Source: Balanoglossus misakiensis (Eukaryota > Animalia > Hemichordata). From it: a DNA stretch of 64,000 bases. A model generated the notes under the pieces. It made no database searches. It was given only the letters and a program-made list of their open reading frames with translations, and was not told where the DNA came from. The stretch covers positions 12,309,654 to 12,373,653 of the forward strand of contig CM082577.2 in NCBI GenBank assembly GCA_040954595.2, in the 5' to 3' direction. The position numbers and the translations under genes are program-made. Positions 8,577-64,000 of the stretch are shown here, piece after piece. The number at the start of each line of letters is the position of its first letter. Within the stretch, counting starts at the first letter, position 1.

Positions 8577-10284
8577 ATGTCAGAACCATCTGCAGCACTG
8601 GTTGTATTGAAATCATGGGACAAAGATGCAAAGACCTCCCAACCAACTCAAGCTACAATCAAACATCTCAAAGAAAACACACTCCAGTCTGAGAATATTT
8701 CTGAATTACACTGTACTACCCTTGAGGTTGAAGTGAGCGAAGAACAAAGGAAAGATGCAGAGAGTGTTGGTGTTAATTTGATCACACCTATAAGAGACAA
8801 GAGATTGGATCCTTCTGAAGACCCCCCTGTAACAAACTGGCTTGTTAACCATGGTACATACTTCCCAGGACTGAAGGACCTGAAAAACATCAAGCATGTG
8901 GTCGGATTCTCTCCAAAGACAAAAAATGCTGCAGCTGCAATCCATGAAAGTCTCTTCCCTGAAGCCAAACTTCATCAACTCCATCTTCCTGATCCACCTC
9001 CTGGGGCACTGTTTGTGTATGATGAATGGAACAAAGAAGACTGTGGCTTGACTGGGTTTCACAGAAATCTCGTACAAGATTTCTGTGCAAGGAAACTTGA
9101 AGAAGGAGCACCTGTTAAAGCCTACTCCACCTTTGTTGGTGTCAAAGCCAGTGATGACCAGAAGGCAGATGCTGCCAGTTGTCGTGTTACGTTGGTTCTT
9201 GCACAAAGACAGGGAAGACTCGACCCAGATGACGACAAGCCAGAATTGAAGTGGTTGCTGTATCATAAAATCTTCTATCCTGACTTACAAAAGCTTGTAA
9301 ACATCCAGCATGTTGTTGGTTACGCTCCCAAGACCGGCCTCGCTGCTGCTGACATCAGAGAGAAAGTATTTCCAGGTGCAGAACTAGTGATGATCAACCA
9401 TGCCTATGAAGATGATAACTGTCTGCTGGGATTATCAACAGAAAAGTTCAGTGAAATGATGCTGAAGATGGCCAGTGAAGCTGACATCATTTTCTCAATT
9501 GGTCCCAGTGTGTATGAACATTTCAAGAGACAATACCGGGCTGCCTTTGATGACAGGGAACTACACAAGATCCCTCATGCAGAGATTGTCCCCAAACCTG
9601 CTGAAGCCTTTTTCAAGATGGACCCACAGTTACCAGATGGAATGACTACTCACAGCATACTGACATACGGACAGATTGATACCCAAGAAGCCTTGGACAG
9701 ATGTGAGACACTAGCAGCTTCTATTGGAAGTGCAGCACAAGTACTGAAAGATGTTTATGACAAACTTCTTTATTGGTCAATACAGGGAGCTTCTCGACAA
9801 GCAGGTCATGCTGAACGAAAAAATCTCCTAAAGCAGATAAACAGCGATCACGTAAAGGCACATCTTCTCCCTGCTTACTCGGCAAAGACCTTAAGGAGAT
9901 CACTTTATCAATCTGACATTTGCCTTCCACCACCTTTCAGTGTGGACTATGGATTTAGTGGTTTAGAAGGTGTAGCATCCGGAACACCAACCTATCCCAC
10001 TGAATATTCCCAGCTTGGAAAGTTGGTCAAGAAATACTTTCCATACTACGCAGACAGATTTGTAGTTTCACAGTCACCTGATAAGATTTCAGAGAAGGTA
10101 ATACTGAGTGTCAAGAATCCCAGGTTAGCTTTTGAAGAAGCTAAGGAGCTGAAGGAGGCTTTCATGGAGAGTGAAGATGTCAAGAAGAGCTATGCAACAT
10201 TTGCCAGTTTGTTGACACCAAAAGGAAGAAAACAACAGGAAGCTGAACATGACCAATGCAGTAAGGAAACAACAAAAGCAACAG
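8577..10284 (+). CDS. Gene A exon 1: glycosyltransferase family 4-like (GT-B, GT4-conflict-type) domain with an extra N-terminal half-copy
   Basis: LFVYDEWNKEDCGLTGFHRNL, VVGYAPKTG, ADIIFSIGP and DICLPPPFSVDYGFSGLEGVASGTP match GT4 motifs. Acceptor AG 8568-69, ATG 8577, donor 10285. Confidence 0.8.
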
Positions 10285-13200
10285 GTACAGTTTAAGTAAT
10301 CTTATGTTTGGTAAAGAATTCATGGTTAAGTTTTCTTTATTCTTCAACTTCAAGGCTGGATGTCTGCACTTTGAATTCAATCCTCATTCAGATAGTGTTG
10401 CAACATGTTAATAAATAATGTGGCTCTAAGTTTCCCCATAGCAATACCCCAATTGTACTAGTCTATTTTTTGTTGTTGAAAGACCAGATCTAAATGCACT
10501 GGTGCATGAGGTAAATGGTATGTTCTATAATAGGATCAGTTTTTTTTGCCAGCTAATCATTCAAACAATAAGTTTGCTTCAAACATTGTCATATAGCTTA
10601 TGTACTTCTGCCATTCTGAAACAGCAATTGCAGTTCCAGTCCAGCCAGATGGAGATGTCCGTCAACAAAATCCAACAACAGCAGCAGAGCAGCAGACATC
10701 AAGTCAACCACCAGCAAAGAGAACAGCAGAAGAAGCATTGAATGACACAAACCAACAAACTACGAAAGTCCACATTGAGGAATTGGAAGAAACGGATACA
10801 AGTATGACAGCAGAGCCACTACAAAACACAGAAAACCATGATGACACAACAATTACAATCCGTGTCGGACTGGATGAAAATGTGTATCAGCAGCATCTAC
10901 AAGACGAAGCACCGAATGAAGCAATGCAGCAGACGGCTTCTGCATCATGGGATAAATGCAAACAGGATTTGGAGAGAAGAGCAGCTGAAGTGGTAACCAA
11001 CAGCGATGACGTCAACAAAGTCAAGAAGGCCTGCACTGACACAATGGGTGAAGTGGACGTAACCAATTTGAAGGAGGGATCGCTGCAAATCACAGTCAAC
11101 ATGTGTAGACTTTACAACCTCTACAGATTGCGGGGAAGCTGTCTTGAATCAAGAAGTTTAGCCAAGGTGTTAGAACCAATCTTCACGACAGATGAAATGA
11201 CAGAGGCCAACACAGCTGGAATTCCACTACAGTTGACAGCAACATATGACCAAGCCAGGTTTGATGAACTGGAACTATTCTTCCTGAACAGTAAGTCTGT
11301 TCCTAAGTTTCTGATTTTTAGTTTTACAGTTTGCATTTCTGATTTGTACATTTTGGCACTAGCCATAATATGGGCCGGCTTCTTGGTCTAAGACAGTACA
11401 GACATCCTCTCCAGCAACTAAAGAAATAGTAACTTCCCTCATAAGCATGGTAATCAGACCAGACTGTATGACTGCTCATGAACAAGAGCAAATATAAAGT
11501 AAGACAGCCAGGCTGCTCAGTCTACACATGATTACATGAATAACACTTGGTTCAGCTTATAACAAAGAACTGCACCGAAACACTAAAACACTTTAAAATA
11601 AATTTTAAAGATGCAAAATAATAATTGTTTCTAAGAAACACAATTAAAACATTTGCATGGTTAACTGTCATCTCTTTAAGCTAATTTCTCAAGTCTTAAA
11701 CATTTTTTCCATGACCAAAGAATCAAGAGTGTATGTATTACACTACACATTTCCTGTTTTATTATCTTCCACTTCCAGGAGATGGTGGGGGAATAAAATC
11801 AGTGAAAGTGTGTGATGACAGTGTAGAAGAGGAAAGTGATGATGATATAATTGATCAGGTAATGATACATTTAGATTGTTATGTGAGTGAATGAAACAAT
11901 ATCATGTTAAATTAAATGACAACACAGTTACTGTAATGATTCTGAAAACAATAATGAGTTCGTCTTTTTTAACGATTATTCACTACCAAATACTGATAAA
12001 TACTAATTTATAAAAGCTCCATTATATCCAACTAAGGATCACAGAACATGCATGGCTTTCCAAGATGCAGAGATGGAAATTCATTCTGATCATTTCCAGA
12101 CTGACCTGAAACGAGGTAAGTACAAGTTTTGGGGCTTGATCATCATGTTAATACTTGTATGTTGTTATATCATTTGAGTTTCCTAAACCTTACTGTTACT
12201 CTGGGCAAAGGTGCCAATTTAGGTCTCTTGGATAGAGACCATTTAATCACAGATAGAGACATTTCATCATTATTGTTTTACCAAGAAGTTAAAAGAATTG
12301 TACATATATGTCTTGCAGGTGGGACAATATACAAGACATTTCTGGAAATTGATCCAGCATGTGAATTCCAGAAGTTAGCTGACAAATATGCACCTCTGAT
12401 ATTTGACAGTGAGCAGTGTAAAAGACAGAAAGGAAGAGAGTTTGACATCATACAACTATCAGGGAAAATGACCAAGAAAGTTCAGAATATCCTATCTCAC
12501 AGACCTCAAGTCTTAGAGTTACTGGGTGTTAGAAGGTATCTTATGACTGACACAGAAAGGGCTGATTTCAGTGAATCAGGTAATAAACAGTTATTTTTTT
12601 AAACATTACTAGCAATTCAGTCACCAAATCTGACAAGCATTACACACTCTAAAGGTTTGAAACTGAAACTCTGAGAAATTTTTCTTTCAGTACCAAGATA
12701 TGAGGTTGTAGTAAAGTGTAAGCTTTTCTGTGATAGTGGTATTTTTACAAAGCAGCCAAATAGTACAGGAAATATTTTCCCCATTTTAAAAAATGACTAA
12801 GTCTCACAAGTCACAACAAATAAGTATCGCCATTCATCCATCGGTAATATTTTCTATCAATTTATACTGAACTAGAGCATTCAAAATTGATGGAATTTGA
12901 CAAAGCCATTTCCTGAATATCCTACCGAGGTCAATAATTTTGTGAAATTTACTTAATCACAGATTTAAATAAGAAGGTGAAAGTAAAGTATTTGATTGCT
13001 TAATGTACATCATACATTTAAATTATTATTCATTCTTCTTCATTTCAGATTTGGAGGGAAAAATCATACAATATGGCACACCAGTTTTTTCCATTGCAGA
13101 TGAATCTATAAGCTCTAAAGCAAAAAGCTTACTGCCCTTTGAAGTTAGTCTAAAACAGTTCCAAGAAATGCAGTCCTTGAAATCAGATAAGAAATCTCTA

Positions 13201-16200
13201 AAACAGCAGTTGGATGAGACCTTGGCAGAAAAGTTCAAACTTCGAGCAGAAAACACAATTCTAGAGAATCAGTTAAAAGAAGCAATTCAGGAAAAGTTCC
13301 TCTTAGAAAAGCAGTACAAAGATTGTGTTCAGAATCTTGAAAAAACTGAAAAAGTAGCTTTCACACAACTTCTGGATGTCATTTTTCTCAAGCAAAGATT
13401 AGAAGAATCAGACCCTAGACACATCCAAGAGTTGAAGTCCAAACTCGATCAGAAAGACCGAATAATTGCTGAACTCAGATCAAAATTATCTAAAAAACAG
13501 GATGAGCAATCTGATAATGAGCTGAAACTGAAAAAGGCTATGGGTCTTCAACTGGGAGAAGATATAACGTTGAAAACTGGACAAGGTGAGATTAATTTAA
13601 GTTTTTTTGTTTGCTGTGGTCATTATGACATTAAACAGGTTCATATTAAGCCTTGTAAATGAGTCATTGCTCAGTGATGATTACAACAATATTAGCAATC
13701 TTAACTATAAAATTGTGAAACAAAATGTTGCTGATATTTTTCTACTTTTAAATGAGGTCAGCATATACTTGTTTTATTTCAACACTGTTTATCGGACTTT
13801 TGAAGATATATTGTTAGACAAACTCAGGGGAAGTAAATTTTTGTCTTCTCATTTCAATTTTGAATTAAAGCTGGTGATACTGAAACTACTGAAGAAAAAG
13901 AAACTGGGGATGCCAAAACCAAACCAACACAGCCTGAGATAACAAGAGAAGAGGCATCTGGGTCTGCAGACCTAACCAAACAAGATAAACCTAGGTCAAC
14001 AGAAAGACAGACTACAGGTGAGAAAGGTAAGGCAATGAAACCTGACATACTCAGAAAATGTATGGAGGCTAAATGTACCGTACAGAACACATTTCACTGG
14101 CATCTGTTCAGAGTAAAGCATCAGTGGCTTAGTCTTTTAGTGTTTCCTCAAGGATTACATGTTAACCCTTTTACCTCCTAGTTCCCTCTATAGAGGTCCA
14201 CATTTACCGTAGAAAACAATAGATTTGGACCAAACCATGGTGGTGAAAGAGTTAAAAGCACTGTATGTGTTACTTTGTTACATTTATAGCTTACCCCACT
14301 GCATTCATTGTACAAATTTTGTAATTCAAATTAGGAACTTACCAATTTTTTAAAAATCCAAATGACAATCTGGAACAGCCAGTGGCGTTGAGACAGACCA
14401 TTATCACGACTCATCCTAAGTGACTGCAGGTTTTCCATCTCTCAGATCATCTGCAATGATTAACAAACTCCTTTCAGATCTTCTAGTAAAAATTATGCCA
14501 ACAAGTTTATTTTACTTTCAAGTAGCCCACTGTAGGACAACATTATCAGTAAATTCCCTGAAGTTAAAGTAACAACAATTATTTGTTCAACAAAAATACT
14601 CACTTGGTCTCAGAAAGTGGCAGCCTTCTCAGCTAAGGACAGTAGATTTGTCTTCTGTTCACTGTTGTTACAATTACTGATTTGAAAGCAGACCATCTCT
14701 GCATGGCTAGAAAAAGAAACAAAGATAATATGCCACATTATAAGTGTATATTCACCTCATTCACGGGACATTTTTCTATTCCGATTTACCAGTGTAACCC
14801 AAACCAAGAACTGGCTGACCTAATAGTTTCAAAATAATTATAACCATGTTATCAAGAAATATCAAAATCAATATACTCAACATTATTAACCATCTTTAAA
14901 ATTAAAAGACAATGCTCATTGTTTCACTGATCTGTTCATGTATGTTACCATGGTTACTTGGTAATGAAAAACTTCAAATGTATAGAGTACTTTGACAGAA
15001 AATTTATCCAATCATTTATTCAATCTGTTAAAAGAAGTTTTATTAAAACACTAACTCTTGCATAGTGCCATATTTTTCAAAATAAATTCAGTTGTCATGG
15101 TTACCAGTTAATAATGTTACTATAATAAATTTGTTCAGGAAAATAATGAACTGAGGAATTATGAATGGTCTATTAAGTCAAAAGTTACAAGAGACAGATA
15201 TTGTAAAATGTGTTACCATGGGAACATCAATGTTAATATATCCATGAATTTTTAAATAAGAATGTCTTTCATGCATATTATAATAATCTGTCAATATTGA
15301 GACAAAATAAATTTCCTCCTCGGTATTGCAGAGAATTAGAAATAGTTCCGGAAACTGGTTACTCTGGTTGCCATGGTTACTTGTCACTGTAAACATTGTG
15401 TGGAGAAACTGCCTTTTAGTGGTTCAGTTGCCATAGCAATGACTCGTTTCTTTTGTAATATGTTTTCTCTTGTCAAAATTAACAATAAAATACTAACTCT
15501 AGCATATTCTTAATTCAACCTCTTTTTCTCCTAATAGGTGACTGGTCAATGAGGACACTGGACGGCCAAAGTCGAAAGCCAGGACGAAAGTTTAAAGAAC
15601 CAAGAGGTATGGTGTTCCATGGTGACCAACTGGTGGTGTGTGACCAAGGCAACAGGGTTGTACAGATACTGAATCAAGATTACACCTGTGACAAAGTCTT
15701 GGGAAGTTTTGATGGTCAGTTTGCAAAGCCATTCCAGCCACAGGATGTAGCTGTCTCCCATGACAACATCTACTTCATAAATGATGATGGAAGTTCTCAA
15801 ATTGTTGTTTGTGATCAAAACAATAAAATTCTTAGAATAATTACTCTACCTGCAGGCACCGATGTCTATGGCATCGCTCTAATGAAAGGATTTGTTTTGG
15901 TCACTGATGTCAGAGGTCATCGGCTACTCAAGTACACCCAAGATGGTCAGTATGTTGCAGAGGTTGGTGGTCGAGGTGATGGCCAAACACAATTCCATTA
16001 CCCATACTCTGTGGCGGTCAACAGTAAGAATGTCATCATGGTGTCTGACTGTGGCAATCACTGCATCAAGTGTTTTGATGCTGAATTGAAATTCTTGTAT
16101 CGATTTGGTGGGGAAGGTTCAGGTCCTGGTCAGCTGAGGTTTCCACAAAGCATTGACATTGATGACGACAATAATTTGTATGTGTGTGATTTTAATAGGA

Positions 16201-16376
16201 TTGCGAACTGGAGATTTGGTGGAGCGTGGATCTGTCACTTATTTAAAGGTGAGGTGAGAAGCCCTCGGTTCCTTGCAGTCAGCGGTGACAGAGTTGCTGT
16301 TAGAGAGGATGGTAAAGACCAAATCAAAGTATTCTACAAGCAGAAATACATGTCCACACGACATCAAAAACAGTGA
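8577..16376 (+). CDS. Gene A: GT4-like (duplicated N-lobe) + TRADD-N-like + unknown domain + coiled coil + NHL repeats; join(8577..10284,10625..11290,11779..11858,12037..12115,12319..12579,13049..13585,13871..14026,15538..16376)
   Basis: All introns are GT-AG and phase-compatible (1,1,0,1,1,1,1); total 4326 nt = 1441 aa + stop. Alternative in-frame sites: acceptor 12100, donor 14017. Confidence 0.8.
10625..11290 (+). CDS. Gene A exon 2: low-complexity linker + TRADD-N-like domain
   Basis: VTNLKEGSLQITVNM..LYRLR..SRSLAKVLEPIFTTDEM pattern; phase 1-1 exon. Confidence 0.7.
12319..12579 (+). CDS. Gene A exon 5: uncharacterised globular segment
   Basis: Open, AG/GT-bounded phase 1-1 exon. Confidence 0.7.
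13049..13585 (+). CDS. Gene A exon 6: coiled-coil region
   Basis: Heptad-like L/K/E/Q-rich sequence; phase 1-1 exon. Confidence 0.8.
14166..14251. mobile_element. Tiny piggyBac-type MITE
   Basis: TTAA on both sides; imperfect TIRs cccttttacctcc / ggtggtgaaagag. Confidence 0.6.
15538..16376 (+). CDS. Gene A terminal exon: NHL-repeat beta-propeller (TRIM2/3-like)
   Basis: FKEPRGM, VCDQGNRVVQI, GQ(T/L)xFxYP/FP and VSDCGNHCIKCF NHL motifs; acceptor AG 15536-37; stop TGA. Confidence 0.92.
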
Positions 16377-46400: not shown

Positions 46401-49400
46401 CTCATTTTCATGATTTTCATTCACATGTGTATCTTAAACAATTTAGACTTGGTTACCATGGCAGTATTTGGCAACCCTTCTAATTTGCATAATTCAAAAT
46501 GGCCGCGAAACATCTTTTCGGGAATGTAATTTTGCCGTTCTTGTCCCAGGATCATGTGAAAAACCTCATTTTATTTTCATTACAGTTGAGCAACCATTAC
46601 TGATGTTAATTTATTCAATACAGGTCACTTCAGTGTAAAAATTGCCGAGCCAATATTAAATTTGACCTCCTGGTTGACGATGACTGGACAATTTGAACAC
46701 CTTGTTATTTATCTTGGGGTTTGCCAAATCATGCTTAACAAATATCCATTGTAGCACAATATATTTATGTATGACCAAAAAATGTTAAATATTAATCATG
46801 TATTTCCCCCAATTTTTTTAAATGTGCTGTCCTCGAGGAGAGTTTACAATGTTTTGAACTTAGCAAAACCTACTGTAGTAAGCGGGTGTTTTCAATCAAA
46901 TGGCACTAATTTTTTCTTATCAAATGTTGAATGAGTAATTACTCTTTAAAGTGCTTATGACATGCCCTATACAACCACGCGTAAAATCACTCTTTGGGTC
47001 TTGAAGTTAACGTATGTTACTATCTGGCATTGCGTATCACCCTCTGTGCTTAGATAACAGGCAAGTAAAAGTGGCGAGTGGGCGTGTACTCCTAACCCAA
47101 CTCAGTCGATTTTTTTCGGCTTTTCAAAGTTAAGCGGAAGACTTATCTTGATGTGGACAAATAGTCTTTCACACCTTTTTTAAATCCTCTGCCTGTAATG
47201 TTAGGCAAGGGCTTCCTAAATGCTTTGAACACTGCTTATATAGTTTGTCTTTGTCTGTGGACTTAATTACTCATGGCCCGCTAATTACACTTTACTGTAA
47301 ACAGAATGGTACACTAGAACCTAGTGTACTTGTTTGTCCATATGCAAATACCTTCGCCTGGCTCGAGTGCGAAGTGGCTCCCTGATCACAGGATGGCAGA
47401 TAATTTACTGGATGATAAAACTTGTTTTCTCCCGAGCTGCAATAAGTCTGGAAATTAAAATCGTTTAAGGCAAAGGCCATAAAGAAAATGATGATGTGTA
47501 CAAATGAACGGCGTGATGATGAAACCTTTACAAGAATGGGGCAGGTTTTGGAGGAGAAGCATTAGTAGATGTTCATCAAGGCTGTGACTGGTCATACATA
47601 TCAAAAGAATTTCGGATAAGATGAAGAAGGGTTTAGTAGATCCTGACGAACCACCTGTTGTCAGAATCTTACAATCACAAGTACAAGTCTTTGATTTTAA
47701 ACCACACAGCCTGTTTTGAGCTTCACCCTGTGATGCTATAAATCCCAAGCATCCCGATAGGTGGACTAGAGTGGTACAGTGTGAAAGAAAGGGACCTTGC
47801 CAACAAAACTCACTGAAACCAACGATAGATACGCAATCCTTAGCCTGAAGAACCAACACTTCATCACCAAAATAAGACTAACCAGCTTGGTAAACATTTG
47901 CTTTCGTGTCAGTTTTACACCAAAACTCGTATACTTATCGTACAATTCAATGGATGTCCAAGTACATAGTTTTTTTATTAATGTACATCTCATCGATAAG
48001 CGTTTTCAAAGCTACATCATCAATCTTCAAGCACTGGTCAGCATGCACAGGAATTTTCCTGAATTCACCATAACAACTAATATAATACTGTGCCTCAGCT
48101 GTAGCTAAGTCATGTGCACCATGACACACCGCAAAGCAACTTCCCTACTCCACACATCGTTTTGATCATTACAATACTTTAATACAACATATTTGAAAGG
48201 TGGGGCATCTTTAACACCCTTTCATCAGCGTGTGTTGACAGACTTCAACTGCGAGCATGCGCAGTTGCTGTAGGGCGTACCGTTTTACGTCACACCATGG
48301 TTAGAATAGGACTGCCGTAAAGTGGCATTTGTCGAAATTAAAATTTGGCGACAAAATACCGCCGTGGATTGGAAATTTATGCAAATGAAGTTTGTGGGTT
48401 TTTCCTCAAAAAAGCCTACGCAAAACAAAGAATTTACTTACTTTGGCCTTATCTTTCTTTCCAGAAATGCTCAATAAAAAATATATAAAAAAAAGTTTTG
48501 AATGCTCTCATTTGTAACCTAGTGCCAAATGTATGGAGGTAGTGGTAGTGTTGTAGTTGTGTATTTTATATCAAACACTTAGAGTGCAGAGTATTTAGTT
48601 ATTAAACAATAATTTTAAAAGAATACCATACATACACAATTAATTCACCCAGCCATGTTTATCTTTCATATACTTCAGGTATATCATATGTCGGTGATGT
48701 TGCTGCTAGCAGTGCAGTTAGTTCAGCTGAAATACAGAAAGAGATGACGACGATGATGAAAGATCCAGAAGGTGAAACCACAAGTGTACAACACCACATA
48801 GACACACATGATTTACGTCGTGCACTGTATCCCTTGATGGCAAGACTGCATTCATCATCACCTCTGCAACAAACTGATTCAGTAGTTATGGACACTAATG
48901 AGAAAGGTAAGATTTTTTACAAATTTAAAATATACAGGAGCCGTTCAAGATACACATTGCTTATCAATGATAGCCATTCAAAGATTCCACTATGCAAGTA
49001 TTGACAGCTACCATTACCCATCCCTAACTTCAAATGTTCACTGATGCTTTTCATGTAAATTTTCCATGTCAAAAACTTTGTCATATGTGTGTGCAGCACG
49101 CACAGTTGTTGACAGGAGTGCCCTGGAACTTTCACCTACATGTATAGCTACTAGCAAATCATCTCGGTCAAACTCTCTACAACGTAGTACTTTATAATGG
49201 AGACAATGATGTATGAACATTTATCATTGGTTACTGCATGTAAGTAAAAACAGTACCGTTCTTGAGAACATACATTTTATATGATTGTGTAAAACATTTG
49301 TGAATTTAAAGTAATTTAGAAGACAGAAAAGTGTCACAATGACAAGTTGAGAAAATGGGAAGTTTCCATTATGCTCCCCCTGTGGGTTGTCAACTCTTCA

Positions 49401-55400: not shown

Positions 55401-58400
55401 ACTGGTCATTTATTAGTTCACACTTCGCAGACCATGAACTTATAAACAAATGTGCGACTGTTTGCAGTTTATCAATGATTTCAGCGTTCTTTGGGAAGTG
55501 ATCATTGTGCAACTGGCCATAAAATGTAGTCTTGGTTGCACAATAAAAATCTATTTGATCACCAAAATTCACTTTTTTGGAATTTTTCTCTGGGTTATTC
55601 AGAGCAGTTACTCTCACCCAGCCACATTACCCTGGTATTCAGTAGAGTTTATTTGATGTCAGCTGATCTTTTAAAAAAAAGTGCCATGGTTAGATTGTAC
55701 CCTTATTAACCACAGACCATCCTACATAAGTTTTGAATGCTCTCATGGCCAAATGTATGCAATTAAAATGTAAATTTATTTTTGGAAGAAATTGGTAAAG
55801 TTGGAAACACCTTCCGTTTACATTTCAGCAGGGTCTGCCAATAAAGACACAGCTGATGGTAACAAACAAAACCAGGTAAGTAACAATCTGATTTCTAAGA
55901 GTATAAAACGGACAAGCACAAAGAGGATCATTATGGAATTAAATCGCACTGTTTGCTGTAAAACCTTATTCATTCAGTTTTACCACTAACGGTATGATTT
56001 AATTCCCAAAATTTTGTATGGGGGTCACACACACACCATTAAGACCGTTCTGAAGCATCTCAGATGAAATACTGGCGTAAATTGTTACGTGTGTACAGTT
56101 GTAAGTGGTCCTGAAATGTCTTAGATTTGAGACGGCTTTGCCGGTCAGACCAGAGCCGGTGTAAGGATTAACTCCTCTCCACAACCCATTGTCTATGGGG
56201 CTGAGCCTCAGCACCTATACATATGTGGCGTTCTCACTGGCACGTTTACACCGGTGCTACAACGGTGTAGATTTGACACCGACGGAAAAAAACAAGTGAG
56301 AACGCTTTACGCCGGTGTTACGCCGGTGTTGATTTGCGACGGCGATGGGTGGCGGGTCAGGGCCAGCGCTCCGACGCAAATAGTCAGTGAGAACGCAAAG
56401 ATAAACAAACGCCGTTCAAAAGCGCCACCCTGCAGTGACTTTTGGGTATGTTTATTAGGTATAGCCCATTGTCTTTGGTCAGTTTCCATTGTCAAGTCAA
56501 TCACACTGGACGCGAGTGGTTTTCAAACCATTCGCAGTTTGCCAGGTCTGCAACACTTCTGTCTGCTACCAACTTTCGGAAGGTTCTCTCCATCACCGAA
56601 AAGATGAGGCATTTTCCATTTATGGATTAACATTCATTTACTTCTAAACATTATCAAAACTGTCACAAAGTCGTCTAGAACGCATATGCAGGTATAGAAA
56701 CTGAAACATGTTGCTGTAATGTCCTCGACGTCCTCAATTTTGTTAGTTGCCGTGATGCTAAACATGGCGATTTAGACGGTGTTTATTTCAAAACAGTGGC
56801 CAAAAGTTTAGTGTGTGGACGCACGGAGATTCTGTGGGCTAATCCCCTGTGTTTGCAGAGAGTAAACACTGGCATAACACTGGTGTCGAAACTTTTAGTG
56901 AGAACAAGACTATAAACTTTGTGTGTGTGGACACAACGCGACTCAAAGGATTAACGCTTTGTGTTTACCATACACAAATAGATAAGTGTCTCAATTTTTT
57001 TCGTGTGTGAACCTGGTATCTGAGTGCAAGTCTGTTTACTGTGTTATACCACAAATTTGCCGAGTTTTTGGCGTGTTTGGTCTCAGCTCAAGTCCGGGTG
57101 TGTGACGTCACTTCCGCTTTGGATGGGTTTTGAATACTCAAATAACAACTGTGACAAGTAGTCACTGAAGAAATTCTCCCGTGGAGTATCAGAGAGAGAA
57201 GAGACCTCTTGTAGTGGAGGTGCTGTGTTCAAATCAGCCTAGCTCTTTGCTGTTTTTTATCTAAATAAATAAAATGTTTCTTTGTAGAAGTTAAAGTCCC
57301 TCCGAACTTAGATCATGGCCAGGTGATGATGGACATATTAAACCGACTGTTTCTAAGGAAGAAAGAGTGGGTTTACTAGTGAACCTGACAGTCTCTGACA
57401 AAGAAACAAACAAAAGGACATCACTTACCATAATTGGTAATGATGAGACAATCGATTATGGAAAATAAGTAGCATGGTTTGAACAATGGGGCACAATGCA
57501 AATAGTGGTACCGGAGTTCGCCCAGGGCCGTTATACAGAAAATGGCTACATTGTATGGTGTACATGTAGAGCTAATTAACCGCCCAGGGCCGTTAATCGA
57601 CAGAAAAGTTTATCTACCATTTAGCTAAATGCAGAAGTATATTTTAGTTGACACTCATTGCAATCATTTAAATGATGATAAACAAAGGGTACAGTGTTGT
57701 GAAACACTTATTTCCCAATATACAATGTATTTCAATGATTTTTTTTTTTTTTTTAATATTTACAATTACACATTCATACAAATTGGCATTGGAACAAACT
57801 GATATTGCAAAACGGTTTCATAAATTTTCTTGAAACATTCGAACTAACATATTCAAAAACCCTCAAAATCGCTCTTATCACAGTCCGACAAAAAAACCCT
57901 CGCATGACTGCCCAAATTTCGCCGGCGCTATCAGTACTGCAAACACTGCCGATGTCGTCATTGAGGTGGTCTGCCTGGCTAAGGACACTCGAGGTATGTA
58001 TTGTCTCAAAACTGACAAAGTATGAGTGGAAGTACGAACTCTGTGCACAACTAAATGTCCGGTTTCCGAAAATATCCTACGTTAATGCTTCAAAGAAAGT
58101 GATCGCCCAGACGCATCGAAAAGTACATGTCTACTCGAGGCTAGCCGGAAGTGCCTTGCCCGTATGCGTGACCCTCACCACCTTCGTCAAAGTCCATGGT
58201 CAAAGGCTACTAATCACCTGACTAGGACTTTTCTCGCTCGATCATCGCGATCGCGTCGACTGACAATCGAGATGCGATGTTCATTTTTAACTGAAAATTA
58301 GGCCTCAAAAAACAAATTGTTCATAAATTCCCGATCATTTGATCATCGGCCGACATTAGAGAGATTTTCATTACCGAAAGTCGGGCTTCAAAAATAAACA

Positions 58401-61400
58401 AGTTCGTAAATTCCCAATCATACATTGATTTATTTTCGTAAATGTCCATTTTTCTTCGTAATTTATGAGTGTTAAGAGCGACAGTGAGAGCAATAAGTAC
58501 AAGTCATCGATGTCATCGAATCCATGTTGGCAAGAAGCACCTCGACATCAAATTTCATGATGGTCAACCTGGAACAATTTTGGCTCATATTATTTTCAGT
58601 AGGGGTTGGTGAAAGTACATGAGCAGCAATTTTGCAGGGAAAAATCAGACCACTATTGTTTTTTTCTTATCGGATGAAAAATGAAAAGGGGTAATGAATC
58701 TTAAAAAGGAACAAGAGACGCACAAAGGCATTTTGTATGTGTTAGTCAACATAGATCCAATGTCGTCACTGAATGGAATGTTCTGCTTCAACGCGTTCCA
58801 GAGTGCCACTGTCAATCATATGAACCCGCGGCCTTGGGTAATAAACTGCTACAGTTGACAGTGCGTTCTTCTGGACCATTCCACTTACATATTAAGTATG
58901 GTTGATAAGGAGGTATGATCATAAGCACTGCACCAAAAATTTGAGATGCCTTAATTACTATTTTAACCTTTTTAAGCTTATTACTATTTCCTTGACGCTT
59001 TCCTTGACTTTTTTCAGCGGATTGGTCAAAGTGAAATGCCACCGACCAAGTCCAAAGTGAAACAGTAATTCTAAATAACGGCCCACCACAAATAACTGAC
59101 TGTGGTTTCGGGTGGGCGAACTCTCACTAAACTCCAGTATAACTACAGGTTAATGCTAATTAACACAGAAGGATTTTTAGGTCCCATTGGTTTTTACCAT
59201 GGGACCTTATGGGATCGGTTGCGTCTGTATGTATGTATGTATGGATGTATGTATGTCTGTATGTCCGTCCACATCAAAAACTTGAAAACCGCTGCGCGTA
59301 TAACCTCGATATTTGGTGTGCAGATGCAGGCAGGGCTGTAGATGGGAGTTTGTCCAAATGAAGTTGTCATTGCCAAAAATATGCAAATTAGCTGGAAAAA
59401 TGTGAATTTTGGTCAAAACTCAGTAACTCAAGAACTACTGGTCAGATTGCTTTGCAAAGTGGTGTGTATTTACTTTATTAAGTTGTTTTAATTAGGCAGG
59501 AACTCCCTCCTGTGTTTCATATAAACATAGCAAATTCCTGAATGATTACATAACTGGCTAAGTTTTATAGAGGCCAGCTGTTCTATTTAGTGTATGTACA
59601 GTACATATGCCATTGGCAGCTTATGGGTCAGTCAGTGTTTGCCCATTGATCTCTCTCTATGTGTGTGTGTGTGTCTGTATGTGGCCATGTACTCCGGTGT
59701 AGACTTTTTCTTGTGTAATCCCTCAATGGGACCGCCGTGTCCTTGACGCAATTTTTTATTTGTTTGTTTGTTTGCTTAGAGAAACCTACCTCAAATCACA
59801 TTTCTATTTTGTGACTTCATTACTTAATATACTACATTTCAATTGTTGTGACATTGTTCTCATGCTCCTCCTTCATTACTTACAGGATGGAGAGACACCT
59901 TTGCACCTTGCAGCAGAGTATGGTGATGAAGGCCGTGTCAGATTGTTATTGGAACACAAAGCTGATGCTAACATACAAAACAAGGTAAATACCAACCTGA
60001 CTTCTACAGGTTAATTCTAATCAACATACAAACATTTGTTGGTGTGTTTTTGTTTATTTAAGGAAACCTCGCATTACATTTCATTTTTGTGACATTGTTC
60101 TCATGCTCCTCCTTCATTACTTACAGGATGGAGACACACCCTTCCATATTGCAGCAAGGTCTGGCAATAAAGGCTGTGTCAGATTGTTATTGGAACACAA
60201 AGCTGATGCTAACATACAAAACAAGGTAAATACCAACCTGACTTCTACAGGTTAATTCTAATCAACATACAAACATTTGTTGGTGTGTTTTTGTTTATTT
60301 AAGGAAACCTCGCATTACATTTCATTTTTGTGACATTGTTCTCATGCTCCTCCTTCATTACTTACAGGATGGAGACACACCCTTCCATATTGCAGCAAGG
60401 TCTGGCAATAAAGGCTGTGTCAGATTGTTATTGGAACACAAAGCTGATACTAACATACAAAACAAGGTAAATACCAACCTGACTTCTACAAGTTAATGAT
60501 ATAAATGTGGAAAGATTTATGTATTTACATGTATTTGTTTGTTTAAAAAAACCTCGCAGTTCAATTGTCATTTTGTGACATTGTTCTCATGCTCCTCCTT
60601 CATTGCGTACAGGATGGAGTTAATGCTTCAAAGAAAGTGATCGCCCAGACGCATCGAAAAGTACATGTCTACTCGAGGCTAGCCGGAAGTGCCTTGCCCG
60701 TATGCGTGACCCTCACCACCTTCGTCAAAGTCCATGGTCAAAGGCTACTAATCACCTGACTAGGACTTTTCTCGCTCGATCATCGCGATCGCGTCGACTG
60801 ACAATCGAGATGCGATGTTCATTTTTAACTGAAAATTAGGCCTCAAAAAACAAATTGTTCATAAATTCCCGATCATTTGATCATCGGCCGACATTAGAGA
60901 GATTTTCATTACCGAAAGTCGGGCTTCAAAAATAAACAAGTTCGTAAATTCCCAATCATACATTGATTTATTTTCGTAAATGTCCATTTTTCTTCGTAAT
61001 TTATGAGTGTTAAGAGCGACAGTGAGAGCAATAAGTACAAGTCATCGATGTCATCGAATCCATGTTGGCAAGAAGCACCTCGACATCAAATTTCATGATG
61101 GTCAACCTGGAACAATTTTGGCTCATATTATTTTCAGTAGGGGTTGGTGAAAGTACATGAGCAGCAATTTTGCAGGGAAAAATCAGACCACTATTGTTTT
61201 TTTCTTATCGGATGAAAAATGAAAAGGGGGTAATGAATCTTAAAAAGGAACAAGAGACGCACAAAGGCATTTTGTATGTGTTAGTCAACATAGATCCAAT
61301 GTCGTCACTGAATGGAATGTTCTGCTTCAATGCGTTCCAGAGTGCCACTGTCAATCATATGAACCCGCGGCCTTGGGTAATAAACTGCTACAGTTGACAG

Positions 61401-64000
61401 TGCGTTCTTCTGGACCATTCCACTTACATATTAAGTATGGTTGATAAGGAGGTATGATCATAAGCACTGCACCAAAAATTTGAGATGCCTTAATTACTAT
61501 TTTAACCTTTTTAAGCTTATTACTATTTCCTTGACGCTTTCCTTGACTTTTTTCAGCGGATTGGTCAAAGTGAAATGCCACCGACCAAGTCCAAAGTGAA
61601 ACAGTAATTCTAAATAACGGCCCACCACAAATAACTGACTGTGGTTTCGGGTGGGCGAACTCTCACTAAACTCCAGTATAACTACAGGTTAATGCTAATT
61701 AACACAGAAGGATTTTTAGGTCCCATTGGTTTTTACCATGGGACCTTATGGGATCGGTTGCGTCTGTATGTATGTATGGATGTATGTATGTCTGTATGTC
61801 CGTCCACATCAAAAACTTGAAAACCGCTGCGCGTATAACCTCGATATTTGGTGTGCAGATGCAGGCAGGGCTGTAGATGGGAGTTTGTCCAAATGAAGTT
61901 GTCATTGCCAAAAATATGCAAATTAGCTGGAAAAATGTGAATTTTGGTCAAAACTCAGTAACTCAAGAACTACTGGTCAGATTGCTTTGCAAAGTGGTGT
62001 GTATTTACTTTATTAAGTTGTTTTAATTAGGCAGGAACTCCCTCCTGTGTTTCATATAAACATAGCAAATTCCTGAATGATTACATAACTGGCTAAGTTT
62101 TATAGAGGCCAGCTGTTCTATTTAGTGTATGTACAGTACATATGCCATTGGCAGCTTATGGGTCAGTCAGTGTTTGCCCATTGATCTCTCTCTATGTGTG
62201 TGTGTGTGTCTGTATGTGGCCATGTACTCCGGTGTAGACTTTTTCTTGTGTAATCCCTCAATGGGACCGCCGTGTCCTTGACGCAATTTTTTATTTGTTT
62301 GTTTGTTTGCTTAGAGAAACCTACCTCAAATCACATTTCTATTTTGTGACTTCATTACTTAATATACTACATTTCAATTGTTGTGACATTGTTCTCATGC
62401 TCCTCCTTCATTACTTACAGGATGGAGAGACACCTTTGCACCTTGCAGCAGAGTATGGTGATGAAGGCCGTGTCAGATTGTTATTGGAACACAAAGCTGA
62501 TGCTAACATACAAAACAAGGTAAATACCAACCTGACTTCTACAGGTTAATTCTAATCAACATACAAACATTTGTTGGTGTGTTTTTGTTTATTTAAGGAA
62601 ACCTCGCATTACATTTCATTTTTGTGACATTGTTCTCATGCTCCTCCTTCATTACTTACAGGATGGAGACACACCCTTCCATATTGCAGCAAGGTCTGGC
62701 AATAAAGGCTGTGTCAGATTGTTATTGGAACACAAAGCTGATGCTAACATACAAAACAAGGTAAATACCAACCTGACTTCTACAGGTTAATTCTAATCAA
62801 CATACAAACATTTGTTGGTGTGTTTTTGTTTATTTAAGGAAACCTCGCATTACATTTCATTTTTGTGACATTGTTCTCATGCTCCTCCTTCATTACTTAC
62901 AGGATGGAGACACACCCTTCCATATTGCAGCAAGGTCTGGCAATAAAGGCTGTGTCAGATTGTTATTGGAATACAAAGCTGATACTAACATACAAAACAA
63001 GGTAAATACCAACCTGACTTCTACAGGTTAATGATATAAATGTGGAAAGATTTATGTATTTACATGTATTTGTTTGTTTAAAAAAACCTCGCAGTTCAAT
63101 TGTCATTTTGTGACATTGTTCTCATGCTCCTCCTTCATTGCGTACAGGATGGAGAGACACCTTTGCACCTTGCAGCAGAGTATGGTGATGAAGGCCGTGT
63201 CAGATTGTTATTGGAACACAAAGCTGATGCTAACATACAAAACAAGGTAAATACCAACCTGACTTCTACAGGTTAATTCTAATCAACATACAAACATTTG
63301 TTGGTGTGTTTTTGTTTATTTAAGGAAACCTCGCATTACATTTCATTTTTGTGACATTGTTCTCATGCTCCTCCTTCATTACTTACAGGATGGAGACACA
63401 CCTTTACACAAGGTAGCAAGGTCTGGCAGTAAAGGCTGTGTCAGATTGTTATTGGAACACAAAGCTGATACTGACATACAAAACAAAGTAAATACCAACC
63501 TGACTTCTACAGGTTAATGCTATCAATGTGGAAAGATTAATTCATATATAAAAATTTTATCTCCAGAAAAGCAATATTACCAGTACATAATTCTTTGTAA
63601 TGAGGGAGAGATCCCTACTGAGATTTGTACACACAGCATGCATGATTACATAACCGGCTAACTTTAAAAGAGACCAGCTGTTCTATTTTTTGTATGTACA
63701 GTACACATGCCATTGGCAGCTTATGGGTCAGTCAGTGTTTGCCCGTTGATCTCTCCATGTGTGTGTGTGTGTGTGTGTGCATGTGTATGTCTGTCTGTAT
63801 ATGTACTACTGTGTAGACTTTTTCTTGTGTAATCCCTAAATGGGACCACAGTGTCCTTGACACGATTTTTGTGACATTGGAGAAAAAAATCTCCTTCTCC
63901 TCCTTCATTACTTAGGGTGGAGACACACCCTTCCATATTGCAGCAAGGTCTGGCAATAAAGGCTGTGTCATATTGTTATTGGAACACAAAGCTGATACTA
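27319..64000 (+). CDS. Gene B: DED + GT4-like + coiled coil + TRADD-N-like + ankyrin repeats; join(27319..27421,27985..28482,48679..48906,51229..52437,52790..52906,53107..53229,53344..53436,53813..54541,55829..55875, ankyrin exons 59886..>64000)
   Basis: All junctions are GT-AG. Eight phase-1 introns, then phase 0 into the 99-bp ankyrin exons. First nine exons = 3147 nt, open. The link to the ankyrin exons is inferred from phase only. Confidence 0.7.
29419..29759. mobile_element. Non-autonomous element with a ~180-bp terminal hairpin (29578-29759)
   Basis: Palindrome acacatgatga..tcatcatgtgt; short IR ttataacacacca / tggtgtgttataa. Confidence 0.72.
29829..33072. mobile_element. Foldback-like element with inverted arrays of ~160-190 bp subrepeats
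   Basis: ggggacccaactacccgaaaatgatggggtgcaatttt..gggcccctccatca units at ~29990-31190 and their reverse complements at ~32380-33060; ends approximate. Confidence 0.65.
30539..30924. mobile_element. Non-autonomous element with a ~160-bp terminal hairpin (30539-30698)
   Basis: Palindrome centred on gggcGAggtttccGAgccc; short IR attatattacc / ggtaatataat. Confidence 0.72.
33917..34204 (-). repeat. 3' LTR; polypurine tract adjacent at 34205-34214
   Basis: Identical by eye to 44285-44572; PPT cggaggagag on the minus strand. Confidence 0.96.
34347..34562. repeat. 74-bp tandem repeat x3 in the Gypsy 3' UTR
   Basis: gaggaa(a/c)gtctgtctccg(g/a)gtagacggaattagacatt at 34347, 34421 and 34495. Confidence 0.93.
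34615..36264 (-). CDS. Gypsy ORF3: C2H2-like zinc finger + helical domain + C-terminal segment of a TatD-family nuclease
   Basis: CPVQDC..LKHHVLYTH. ILIETDSPYFP..NTPRYIGDVASAVAGVRGVSTRELLETTVANTKNVY matches the TatD C-terminus. N-terminal TatD motifs (DxHxH, GExGLD) are absent. Confidence 0.75.
   Translation of the reverse strand: MAEERQKKTSSLRDPERWRRVVNSIEEKIARRYLIPARELMSELGFCMGLESGIIQDLVTRQYKIAVQRGDWGWVTEAHKCEFCCSLAWMQENIPHKNPRMNQPKVKPVYHHEFNERGMVRDCRLSYRTDLVTTRQNAATGEDVLISASTPADQAEIPVDSDRPDQAPTVESNGNGVHSEQSRGHEETNERPPATATTSASSTDQASQRSVPPPAPTRGKRRFQSTAEKKGKKRENFKVISTFSVVSGGEYEISRKVSRTNQSTVKGGQPSIPSIPTDPGSRAANSGKNPDRKKNRQKLCKCPVQDCYLTTSKLKHHVLYTHISPALWEMKYRNEEPDTEKMGMALDQLAKWILGAGATKEMLWRSFVDDHSEVERIPATSELSDEYQRLMRHLCLSNSWEIPEKFLLKPPNSPAVIIHWRIISIMISKISPEQRKQFRELFDSFRDEPSTAVKPGGESADNGNPERPDGEGTSRPPESHQSTTTPVSADENKILIETDSPYFPLTQEVDVNTPRYIGDVASAVAGVRGVSTRELLETTVANTKNVYQV
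36358..40578 (-). pseudogene. pol: Gypsy pol (protease, RT, RNase H, integrase) with one in-frame TGA at 39283-39285
   Basis: AIVDTAA, FLDD, DTDASD, HHCC zinc finger, DFLGP..TDQG..VER, GPG. DGSV*WCVDY joins the two ORFs in frame. Confidence 0.95.
40551..40614 (-). promoter_or_regulatory. Predicted -1 ribosomal frameshift signal (gag-pol)
   Basis: G_GAA_AAC in the gag frame, 5-nt spacer, stem CGGGUC/GACCCG, loop GAGGCC pairing with downstream GGCCUC; pol is in the -1 frame. Confidence 0.75.
40581..43259 (-). pseudogene. gag: Gypsy gag (N-terminal HhH, capsid, CCHC knuckle), disrupted by a frameshift near 43120 and by a MITE
   Basis: YNGTSNWRTF..RQQPDEVLEDWADRV capsid. Removing the MITE restores ERSRYTSRSPSPNSRGCFHCGNMGHYKRNC..*. 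HhH motif ININECSYEELLKLPGIG. Confidence 0.88.
40747..41586. mobile_element. Tc1/mariner-pogo type MITE inserted in gag
   Basis: TIRs cagtagaacgtcgattatccg / cggataatcgacgttctactg; TA TSD; excision restores the gag frame. Confidence 0.95.
44272..44283 (-). other. Primer binding site TGGCGCTGCGAG (probably tRNA-Ser)
   Basis: 1 nt inside the 5' LTR and begins TGG; the tRNA assignment is inference. Confidence 0.8.
44285..44572 (-). repeat. 5' LTR
   Basis: 288 bp, TG..CA, followed by the CCTA TSD. Confidence 0.96.
45639..45779. repeat. 141-bp hairpin, probable terminus of a non-autonomous element
   Basis: gagaataatgaacgccccaaagaccc..ggcttcgcc..gggtctttggggcgttcattattctc. Confidence 0.85.
45930..46560. 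repeat. Degenerate ~162-bp tandem repeat x4 (transposon-internal)
   Basis: taa(t/c)ttgcataat..aa.atggccgc at ~45991, 46157, 46319 and 46481. Confidence 0.8.
46961..47395 (+). mobile_element. ~433-bp dispersed repeat, copy 1
   Basis: Direct copy at 54779-55211; catgcc..gg(c)atg ends. Confidence 0.85.
47440..48230. mobile_element. Scrambled coding relic of a large DNA transposon
   Basis: HDLATAEAQYYISCY (DLxAAEAxYHxxC-like) on the minus strand; FDFK..KHPDRW on the plus strand. Confidence 0.5.
48679..48906 (+). CDS. Gene B exon 3 (linker)
   Basis: ttcag acceptor, gtaaga donor, open, phase 1-1. Confidence 0.72.
49511..50360 (-). mobile_element. 5'-truncated non-LTR retrotransposon (L2/CR1-group RT C-terminus)
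   Basis: LSPKFFNIYVDQL..HLMYADD..KHLG; 3' end ccgaaataaa. Confidence 0.9.
51229..52437 (+). CDS. Gene B exon 4: GT4-like domain
   Basis: IIFLAEKW, ASAVFSVGP and NVCIIPPDEPFRMEGLRSIAAGLPVLV; homologous to gene A exon 1; phase 1-1. Confidence 0.82.
52790..53436 (+). CDS. Gene B exons 5-7 (52790-52906, 53107-53229, 53344-53436): S/P-rich linkers
   Basis: AG/GTAAGT-bounded, all phase 1-1; exons 5 and 6 resemble each other. Confidence 0.72.
53813..54541 (+). CDS. Gene B exon 8: charged coiled-coil repeat + TRADD-N-like domain
   Basis: MDHETEQKR repeats, then QSSLWFLLSF..IDYFWQKYNAGEIDEMLSGILITSEM..IRMKIDEKQY. Confidence 0.8.
53875..54090 (+). repeat. 27-bp coding tandem repeat (9-aa period)
   Basis: atggaccatgaaac(a/g)gaacagaaaagg and variants. 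Confidence 0.92.
54779..55211 (+). mobile_element. ~433-bp dispersed repeat, copy 2
   Basis: Matches 46961-47395. Confidence 0.85.
56223..56911 (-). mobile_element. ~680-bp MITE, copy 2 (inverted relative to 26472-27149)
   Basis: Reverse-complement match with only a few differences; the chance ORFs in the two copies are nearly identical. Confidence 0.88.
57102..57117 (-). promoter_or_regulatory. Overlapping ETS-CRE motif GCGGAAGTGACGTCAC
   Basis: Plus strand reads gtgacgtcacttccgc; function unproven. Confidence 0.5.
58081..63153 (+). repeat. Near-identical 2.5-kb tandem duplication (58081-60618 / 60619-63153)
   Basis: Junction gatgga|gttaatgcttc; copies differ by +1 G, -4 nt in (tatg)n and about three substitutions. 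Confidence 0.95.
59173..59470 (+). mobile_element. Helentron/HINE-like fragment with a (TGTA)n/GTCC microsatellite (duplicated at ~61712)
   Basis: ttttta-ggtccca..tgggacc subterminal IR followed by a microsatellite. Confidence 0.45.
59886..64000 (+). CDS. Array of 99-bp single-ankyrin exons: 59886-59984, 60127-60225, 60368-60466, (60613 broken), 62421-62519, 62662-62760, 62903-63001, 63148-63246, 63389-63487, 63916->64000
   Basis: Each encodes (D/G)GxTPxHxAAxxGxxGxVRLLLEHKADxNIQNK-like sequence, AG/GT-bounded, phase 0; exon+intron unit is 241 bp. Confidence 0.93.

What the first reader, a model, noticed from the sequence alone, without database searches (positions are those of the whole stretch)
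8577..64000. Modular GT4-like / TRADD-N-like receptor cluster with swappable C-terminal repeat domains (NHL vs ankyrin), next to an LRR gene
Seen: two adjacent genes share a GT4-like exon, a coiled coil and a TRADD-N-like module but in different order. One ends in an NHL propeller; the other has an N-terminal DED and ends in ankyrins. An LRR gene lies immediately upstream. Known: GT4-type and TRADD-N-like domains occur in cnidarian/amphioxus NLR-like and bacterial conflict proteins. Inference: a NACHT-less innate receptor family in which a repeat sensor is coupled to a GT fold and death-fold/TRADD-N adaptors. I do not recall these exact architectures being characterised.
Basis: partly seen in the sequence, partly recalled or inferred. 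Interest (0 to 1): 0.82.

Follow-up and report, generated by a model that had tools for sequence, protein, structure and literature searches.

The report
Acorn-worm sensors with dead glycosyltransferase
Two neighbouring genes, likely from an acorn worm, are predicted to join a sugar-transferase fold that has lost most of its usual donor-binding residues to a TRADD-N hinge and to different repeat tails; this gene layout is already published as likely immune proteins of marine animals, but the eroded active site suggests these copies are non-enzymatic sensors rather than sugar-adding weapons.

Summary
Gene A (8577-16376, 8 exons, 1441 aa, open) reads: extra GT4 N-lobe, GT4, TRADD-N-like, unknown ~110-aa domain, coiled coil, NHL propeller. 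Gene B (27319 to beyond 64000) reads: DED, GT4, coiled coil, TRADD-N-like, one-repeat-per-exon ankyrins. The GT-B fold is confirmed, and TRADD-N is the top structural match.

The family is not new. Kaur et al. 2021 (eLife) describe GT4+TRADD-N proteins in hemichordates, amphioxus and cnidarians, and list ankyrin, beta-propeller, TPR and LRR tails.

Corrections: A and B are distant subfamilies (GT4 28% identical) and their coiled coils look unrelated. The traceable swap is LRR to ankyrin in B's lineage, exactly at a phase-1 intron. The upstream LRR gene is likely a third family member.

Additions: A and B each keep only 1 of 4 canonical donor-binding residues. 60 of 61 non-amphioxus GT4-to-TRADD-N domains keep 2 or fewer, while 6 of 6 in the amphioxus clade keep 3-4. 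A's subfamily also carries a duplicated N-lobe.

Best reading: likely non-catalytic intracellular immune sensors or scaffolds diversified by exon shuffling; function untested. New variant of a known kind.

The parts
3..1553 (+). 3' coding exon of an LRR gene (13 canonical 28-aa repeats), likely a third TRADD-N family member whose 5' part lies outside the window
   Evidence: Pfam LRR_6 2e-90. The two best hits are NACHT-less P. flava DED-TRADDN-helical-LRR (61%) and GT4-TRADDN-helical-LRR (48%) proteins. Concave-face positions pN 0.31 vs pS 0.14 among 12 repeats.
8577..10284 (+). Gene A exon 1: duplicated GT4 N-lobe (aa ~5-135) plus complete GT4-conflict domain with eroded donor site (Q366, D374, V456 at the R, K and E1 positions; E464 kept)
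   Evidence: pLDDT 93, pTM 0.90; MshA top hit, E 4e-12
10625..11290 (+). Gene A exon 2: linker plus TRADD-N-like domain (aa ~640-791; GS turn at 721-722)
11779..11858 (+). Gene A exon 3 (acidic linker; completes the RDGG end of the TRADD-N module seen in relatives)
   Evidence: joined form in run X3
12037..12115 (+). Gene A exon 4 (alternative in-frame acceptor at 12100)
   Evidence: X3 joint 11855 to 12039
12319..12579 (+). Gene A exon 5: conserved alpha/beta-looking domain of unknown family (about 110 aa with the start of exon 6)
   Evidence: Found in 15 of 173 relatives plus gene A; no Pfam or Atlas hit
13049..13585 (+). Gene A exon 6: coiled-coil region
13871..14026 (+). Gene A exon 7: low-complexity linker (alternative donor at 14017)
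15538..16376 (+). Gene A exon 8: NHL beta-propeller and stop codon
   Evidence: Pfam NHL 3e-17; a 1772-nt X3 contig of a paralogue joins exon-2, exon-6 and exon-8 sequence
27319..27421 (+). Gene B exon 1: ATG and first part of the DED
27985..28482 (+). Gene B exon 2: rest of the DED plus linker
   Evidence: Pfam DED E 8e-4, below cut-off
33917..44572 (-). Gypsy-type LTR retrotransposon inside the predicted intron 2 of gene B
   Evidence: Gag, protease, RT, RNase H and integrase Pfam hits; identical ~288-bp LTRs and CCTA target-site duplication
48679..48906 (+). Gene B predicted linker exon 3
   Evidence: Phase 1-1, open; similar to the region before GT4 in P. flava DED-GT4 protein P0041
51229..52437 (+). 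Gene B exon 4: GT4-conflict domain with eroded donor site (T490, T497, R587 at the R, K and E2 positions; E579 kept)
   Evidence: an X3 piece ends at 52437
52790..53436 (+). Gene B linker exons 5-7 (52790-52906, 53107-53229, 53344-53436)
   Evidence: Phase 1-1, open; the end of exon 7 matches P0036/P0037
53813..54541 (+). Gene B exon 8: 27-bp-repeat coiled coil plus TRADD-N-like domain; its donor is the tail-swap point
   Evidence: an X3 piece ends at 54541
55829..55875 (+). Gene B predicted phase 1-to-0 adaptor exon before the ankyrin exons
   Evidence: splice signals and phase only
59886..64000 (+). Ankyrin array: eight complete 99-nt phase-0 exons (59886, 60127, 60368, 62421, 62662, 62903, 63148, 63389), one truncated copy at 60613 and one at 63916 cut by the window end

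Best explanation
These genes are predicted to encode hemichordate-type GT4 + TRADD-N proteins whose glycosyltransferase fold has lost three of four usual donor-binding residues, so they likely work as non-enzymatic intracellular immune sensors or scaffolds with exchangeable repeat tails.

Shown: the domain content, the folds, the residue losses, and replacement of an LRR tail by ankyrin exons at a phase-1 intron in gene B's lineage.

Inferred: (1) the NHL, ankyrin or LRR tail binds a microbial or damage-linked ligand; (2) TRADD-N acts as the hinge that releases the flanking domains, as Kaur et al. propose for the family; (3) output is by assembly rather than catalysis, through the DED recruiting DED-bearing adaptors or caspases in gene B and through coiled-coil oligomerisation in gene A, which has no death fold; (4) the retained GT-B fold, with its extra acceptor-side lobe in A, serves as a glycan or nucleotide-sugar binding, decoy or scaffold module.
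For: Folds.

Position mapping: an intact amphioxus GT4 aligns to Pyrococcus glycogen synthase at GR..KG and EPFGLV.LE. Passages of PMC8760489 say the two Glu bind donor sugar and ribose and that Arg/Lys bind the pyrophosphate. Genes A and B each keep 1 of these 4 residues.

Census of 171 GT4 domains: outside the amphioxus-type clade, 60 of 61 domains followed by TRADD-N keep 2 or fewer of 4. Inside it, 6 of 6 keep 3-4. Hemichordates also hold intact GT4s without a following TRADD-N (P0047, P0048, P0053, P0060, P0076).

The fold is kept in a large family: 35 hits at 32-52% identity, 33 from P. flava and 2 from Glandiceps.

Tail swap: B's TRADD-N sits in a 7-row clade whose other 6 rows all end in LRRs (SH-aLRT 97), and similarity to them stops at the exon-8 donor. 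All introns between GT4, TRADD-N and their neighbours are phase 1. Relatives carry NHL, TPR, NB-ARC-TPR, LRR, Bcl-2 or PARP14-like tails. The LRR neighbour varies mainly at concave-face positions.

Contigs of run X3 skip the predicted introns in paralogues.
Against: No activity, ligand or immune expression was measured. In some GT4 enzymes one of the two Glu is expendable. A-type proteins keep E2 and the N-lobe His, and 50 of the 61 GT4-to-TRADD-N domains outside the amphioxus-type clade have Asp/Glu one position after the lost E1, which could be a retooled active site.

The 61 eroded domains are mostly close paralogues from two or three species, so they are not independent, and the TRADD-N profile was seeded with hemichordate sequences. 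The ankyrin copies show no excess of amino-acid change (pN 0.087, pS 0.103 among 5 distinct copies). The LRR pN/pS rests on few synonymous differences between non-independent repeats.

Gene A has no death-fold output domain. The DED-GT4 splice of gene B is unproven, and an in-frame ATG lies just upstream of its GT4 exon.
Confidence: 0.5

Rival explanations
1. The GT4 domains are active effectors with altered chemistry or donor. The repeat tail targets an invader or host molecule, TRADD-N gates activity, and GT4 modifies the target (the Kaur et al. model).
For: Kaur et al. treat GT4 as an effector. The GT-B fold is intact. A-type keeps E2, His275 and a shifted acidic residue. One Glu is expendable in some GT4s.
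Against: Both pyrophosphate-binding basic residues are missing in A and B, on top of one Glu. The E1 column is hypervariable in these clades (15 different residues among 61 rows), whereas intact clades are nearly invariant there.
Confidence: 0.25
2. The proteins are mainly negative regulators or decoys. The dead GT4 and TRADD-N/DED compete with or dimerise with intact GT4 effectors or death-fold adaptors, as cFLIP does with caspase-8 (analogy recalled), or act as bait for pathogen inhibitors of the active GT4s.
For: Intact and eroded GT4 clades coexist in the same hemichordate genomes. Large, fast-changing paralogue sets fit bait or decoy evolution.
Against: Each eroded GT4 is fused to its own variable repeat tail, which fits sensing better than plain inhibition. 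No partner is identified.
Confidence: 0.15
3. One or both models are not functional genes. Gene B is a decaying or chimeric copy (DED exons cut off by the retrotransposon, ankyrin array partly an assembly duplicate), or the family has a non-immune role.
For: A very recent LTR insertion lies in the 20-kb intron. A 2.5-kb duplication is 2531 of 2534 identical and truncates an ankyrin exon. No contig identical to A or B was seen across a splice junction.
Against: All 25 modelled complete exons are open and phase-compatible. The same DED-GT4-TRADD-N front exists in P. flava P0037. Spliced-looking paralogue contigs exist.
Confidence: 0.1

Closest known systems
GT4 + TRADD-N (DEDD2 clade) proteins of cephalochordates, hemichordates and cnidarians (Kaur, Iyer, Burroughs, Aravind 2021, eLife 10:e70394, PMC8195603)
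   Same: GT4 before a TRADD-N hinge, with variable tails. Their source data list GT4+TRADDN+Ankyrin (XP_019626189, XP_015754284), +Beta-propeller (XP_019644604, NHL), +TPRs, +LRRs and +Bcl-2. My TRADD-N profile hits two of those accessions. They also note association with retrotransposons.
   Different: They propose an active GT4 effector; here the donor site is eroded. The duplicated N-lobe, the exon-5 domain and the exact DED-GT4-CC-TRADDN-ankyrin order were not in the parts I read. The string DED+GT4 occurs 4 times in the stored, cut file, and the rows shown do not continue into TRADD-N. Swaps here map to phase-1 introns; 'exon shuffling' has 0 hits in their main text.
Ptychodera flava and Glandiceps talaboti uncharacterised RefSeq proteins (e.g. 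XP_070560471, XP_070546064, XP_070571552; P0002-type GT4-NHL proteins)
   Same: Closest sequences (45-60% identity in GT4). The same A-type architecture (N-lobe duplicate, GT4, TRADD-N, CC, NHL) and B-type front end, with the same motif erosion.
   Different: All long B-type relatives found end in a ~600-aa helical region plus LRRs, not ankyrins. They are annotated only as uncharacterised or by misleading names.
GT4 enzymes MshA, BshA, TviE (GT-B fold)
   Same: Fold (Foldseek E 4e-12 to MshA).
   Different: The EX7E motif and Arg/Lys pyrophosphate clamp are largely lost; there is an extra N-lobe; and the domain is fused to adaptors and repeats.
Animal NLRs, including GT4-bearing NACHT-LRR proteins of amphioxus and corals (P0281, P0261)
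   Same: Effector or adaptor front with a repeat sensor tail; related LRR type.
   Different: No NACHT/NB-ARC domain in genes A or B, nor a genuine P-loop motif in the closest LRR-tailed relatives.

Membership tests
TRADD-N superfamily (Kaur 2021) | RRM-like two-layer alpha+beta fold with four-stranded sheet, closest to TRADD-N | tested here: met
   Gene A domain: strands 6-13, 75-80, 84-89, 134-138; top hit 1F3V in Foldseek and 1F2H in VIA-align, Z 6.5, rmsd 4.4, 111 aligned, tied with other folds. Gene B's domain was not folded; it is linked by profile (E 5e-33, profile includes it) and by Atlas.
TRADD-N superfamily (Kaur 2021) | Conserved uS motif at the beta2-beta3 turn | tested here: met
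   EGS at aa 720-722 of A, between model strands 75-80 and 84-89; QSS at 963-965 of B
TRADD-N superfamily (Kaur 2021) | Pfam TRADD-like_N (PF20694) or TRADD_N score above cut-off | tested here: not met
   No hit for either window domain; 4 of 25 aligned members hit PF20694 weakly, best E 0.021
GT4 + TRADDN-DEDD2 architecture class | GT4 upstream of a TRADD-N that lies between constant and variable parts | tested here: met
   profile hits XP_019644604 (E 2.5e-6) and XP_006811676 (E 1.3e-4), both listed as TRADDN-DEDD2 in the paper
GT4 + TRADDN-DEDD2 architecture class | Phylogenetic placement in the DEDD2 rather than the NCOA6 clade | not tested
   No DEDD2 or NCOA6 reference sequences were in my trees
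GT4-conflict (PF20706) | Score above curated cut-off and GT-B fold | tested here: met
   124.6 and 77.9 bits vs cut-off 26
Active GT4 glycosyltransferase | EX7E motif plus Arg/Lys pyrophosphate-binding pair | tested here: not met
   A keeps only E2, B only E1
Active GT4 glycosyltransferase | Sugar transfer from an NDP-sugar | not testable with these tools
   Needs an enzyme assay
NLR / STAND receptor | NACHT or NB-ARC NTPase | tested here: not met
   No such Pfam hit in the 13 ORFs of the three genes that were scanned; no further exon found in the window by tblastn with 173 relatives
TRIM-NHL | RING/B-box before coiled coil and NHL | tested here: not met
   No RING or B-box hit in gene A's six long exons
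Innate immune receptor | Ligand binding and signalling on challenge | not testable with these tools
   Inferred from architecture only

The most novel reading that the evidence does not exclude
Acorn worms have turned an ancestral glycosylating immune effector into a large family of pseudo-glycosyltransferase receptors. The dead GT-B pocket, with a duplicated acceptor lobe, reads microbial glycans or nucleotide-sugar metabolites, or baits pathogen inhibitors. Phase-1 exon shuffling after the TRADD-N hinge supplies new NHL, ankyrin, LRR or TPR specificity. This would be an NTPase-free alternative to NLRs in a deuterostome.
Probability: 0.3. Interest if true: 0.72.

Novelty: new variant of a known kind. 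Interest (0 to 1): 0.42.

Why it matters
The published model treats animal GT4-conflict domains as enzymes that glycosylate invaders. In the hemichordate GT4-to-TRADD-N subfamilies sampled here the donor site is eroded, while amphioxus counterparts and other hemichordate GT4s keep it. That gives matched intact and eroded pairs for a direct assay of whether this immune module works by catalysis or by binding. The locus also pins one tail swap (LRR to ankyrin) to a single intron. The architecture itself is already catalogued, and nothing functional is shown, which caps the interest.

Tried and rejected
No whole genome is held for this window, so no genome-wide census was possible.

No RNA holder was listed.

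Sequence searches of the PDB with A's GT4 and with the TRADD-N profile found nothing; only structure comparison worked. A near-length homolog search with B's TRADD-N domain found nothing.

Exon-5 domain: no Pfam hit, no Atlas hit, and no profile match to the TRADD-N alignment (probability 0.2%). The idea of a second TRADD-N is unsupported.

Complex prediction of GT4 with TRADD-N gave no verdict (0.62, but one control scored 0.57).

A NACHT remnant in the LRR-tailed relatives was suspected by eye, but Pfam shows none. The region matches the helical region of an amphioxus CARD-GT4-Death-LRR protein (E 2e-6).

Two independent losses of GT activity in A and B were considered. The tree gives three well-supported groups without a root, so one shared loss followed by different Glu losses fits equally well.

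The regex motif count mis-anchored gene A and a few others and was replaced by column counts. 3 of 174 domains of 280 aa or fewer were dropped. The family-specific Arg of PSR was removed from the final count.

Whether the 2.5-kb ankyrin duplication is real is undecided: one piece in it has depth 61 against about 30 for other exact pieces, which also fits homozygosity.

Rfam found nothing.

Literature searches listed no paper on inactive GT4 in these proteins. PMC3879445 has no occurrence of 'glycosyl' or 'Saccoglossus'. Subscription papers are mostly outside the library.

Full report
What is in the window. The window is AT-rich animal DNA with three same-strand genes. Gene A has eight GT-AG exons from 8577 to 16376 that give an open 1441-aa protein. 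Gene B has 17 complete exons from 27319 to 63487 that give an open 1313 aa, and it continues past the window end. An LRR exon occupies 3-1553. Pfam finds GT4-conflict in both genes, NHL in A, a sub-threshold DED and ankyrins in B, and LRRs in the neighbour. The best relatives are Ptychodera flava proteins at 45-60% identity, then Glandiceps, Saccoglossus and Branchiostoma. The source is therefore likely an acorn worm; no identical protein was found.

Are the splice models real? Relatives continue across my junctions, for example FFLN|RDGG between A exons 2 and 3. Contigs of run X3, whose kind is only guessed as DNA, skip the predicted introns. They show joints 11291 to exon-3 sequence and 11855 to 12039, a 1772-nt contig linking exon-2, exon-6 and NHL-exon sequence, and pieces ending at 12579, 52437 and 54541. 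These are paralogues at about 85-95% identity, so they support the family's exon structure, not expression of A or B; that X3 is RNA is my inference. Summed contig depth in X1 over A's GT4, TRADD-N and NHL exons is roughly 670-6400 against about 30 for exact intron pieces. This fits many paralogues but is not a copy number. The DED-GT4 join in B crosses a 20-kb intron with a Gypsy-type element whose LTRs are identical. It is inferred from phase and from P0037, which has the same front end.

Folds. A's exon 1 models with pLDDT 93 and pTM 0.90 and matches GT-B enzymes, MshA first. It carries an extra copy of the first ~130 residues of the N-lobe (48 of 129 identical to the second). 40 of 183 GT4 domains examined have one or two such extra lobes, and these fall in A's clade. 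The exon-2 domain models as a four-stranded alpha/beta sandwich whose top match is TRADD-N by two aligners (modest scores). It has the uS turn that Kaur et al. name as the family mark, and Atlas neighbours of both A's and B's domains are TRADD-like_N clusters. Pfam's own model does not reach them.

A and B are not rearrangements of one chassis. Their GT4 domains are 28% identical, their coiled coils look unrelated, and they fall in separate, fully supported clades. B's nearest long relatives (P0036-38, P0292) end in a helical region plus LRRs. B's TRADD-N nests among six LRR-tailed proteins, and similarity to them ends exactly at the exon-8 donor. So ankyrin exons likely replaced an LRR tail at a phase-1 intron; nearly all domain-flanking introns here are phase 1. 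The upstream LRR exon is most like NACHT-less DED- or GT4-TRADDN-helical-LRR proteins (top two of 1074 hits). The cluster therefore probably holds LRR, NHL and ankyrin versions of one family.

The GT4 donor site. An intact amphioxus GT4 aligns with glycogen synthase at the Arg, Lys and two Glu positions. Passages of PMC8760489 give these roles in donor binding and note that one Glu can be expendable. A keeps only the second Glu and B only the first. Of 171 domains, 60 of 61 followed by TRADD-N outside the amphioxus-type clade keep two or fewer of the four. 6 of 6 inside that clade keep three or four, as do 60 of its other 64 members and 22 of the 40 remaining domains. Against a dead enzyme: 50 of the 61 have an acidic residue one place after the lost first Glu, the N-lobe His is kept, and the rows are close kin.

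What is known. I read the abstract, sections 8, 10, 11 and 12, passages of sections 13 and 15, and searches of two supplements of Kaur et al. 2021. In the supplements I saw 60 of 1690 GT4 places and 30 of 60 Saccoglossus places in the Figure 4 data, which was cut when stored. They describe GT4 before TRADD-N in hemichordates, cephalochordates and cnidarians, list ankyrin, beta-propeller, TPR, LRR and Bcl-2 tails, propose TRADD-N as an autoinhibitory hinge, and treat GT4 as an active effector. None of the 12 of 18 passages shown calls a GT4 inactive. For PMC8760489 and bioRxiv 10.1101/2025.10.15.682550 I saw passages only; for PMC3879445 only a null term search; other papers only as search listings. 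Two unreviewed earlier notes on other pieces of this genome report the same family with lost GT residues. I had reached that reading before seeing them, and they are not independent evidence.

Mechanism. Most likely (0.5) these are non-catalytic intracellular sensors or scaffolds. The tail recognises, TRADD-N relays, and output is by DED- or coiled-coil-driven assembly, with the GT-B fold kept for binding, bait or structure. Rivals are a retooled active effector (0.25), a negative regulator or decoy for intact GT4 paralogues (0.15), and non-functional or non-immune copies (0.1). Domain content, folds, residue losses and the swap point are shown; every functional step is inferred.

Verdict. A real, intact-looking locus of a published family, with an apparently unreported hemichordate twist (eroded donor site, duplicated N-lobe, an unknown domain) and one traceable tail swap. 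New variant of a known kind; interest 0.42.

Noticed in passing
window 33917-44572 (-): Gypsy-type LTR retrotransposon with identical ~288-bp LTRs and a CCTA target-site duplication, so very recent. An in-frame stop interrupts the pol frame near 39283. An extra 549-aa ORF (34615-36264) after integrase ends in a TatD DNase-like fragment (Pfam E 3e-9).
   Followed up: partly
window 58081-60618 and 60619-63153: 2.5-kb tandem duplication, 2531 of 2534 bases identical, that doubles three ankyrin exons and leaves a truncated exon start at 60613. It may be real or an assembly duplicate. The 142-nt introns between ankyrin exons are identical in 5 of 5 compared.
   Followed up: partly
window 5260-5649 and 6405-6766 vs 22955-23662: Non-coding blocks upstream of genes A and B are about 80% identical, in the same order and strand. 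Each pair holds an AG...GT-bounded candidate 5' exon (5325-5401, 23018-23086), although the two GT4 domains are only 28% alike. This suggests a recently shared 5' region or a repeat.
   Followed up: partly
window 12319-12579: Conserved ~110-aa alpha/beta-looking domain of A-type proteins with no Pfam or Atlas match.
   Followed up: partly
window 3-1260: 84-bp LRR units are homogenised except at the concave-face positions, where most changes alter the amino acid.
   Followed up: partly
window 18800-21200 and 49718-50359: Decayed retroelement fragments (Gypsy-like RT pieces, a Pao/BEL-like fragment by eye, and a LINE-type RT fragment on the minus strand).
   Followed up: no
P0092 (Glandiceps XP_077990954): Eroded GT4 + TRADD-N fused to a whole PARP14-like module (RRM, KH, Macro, WWE, PARP).
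   Followed up: no
P0036-P0038, P0177, P0230, P0292: A ~600-aa region between TRADD-N and the LRRs resembles by eye the helical back half of a NACHT module but lacks a P-loop and has no Pfam match.
   Followed up: partly
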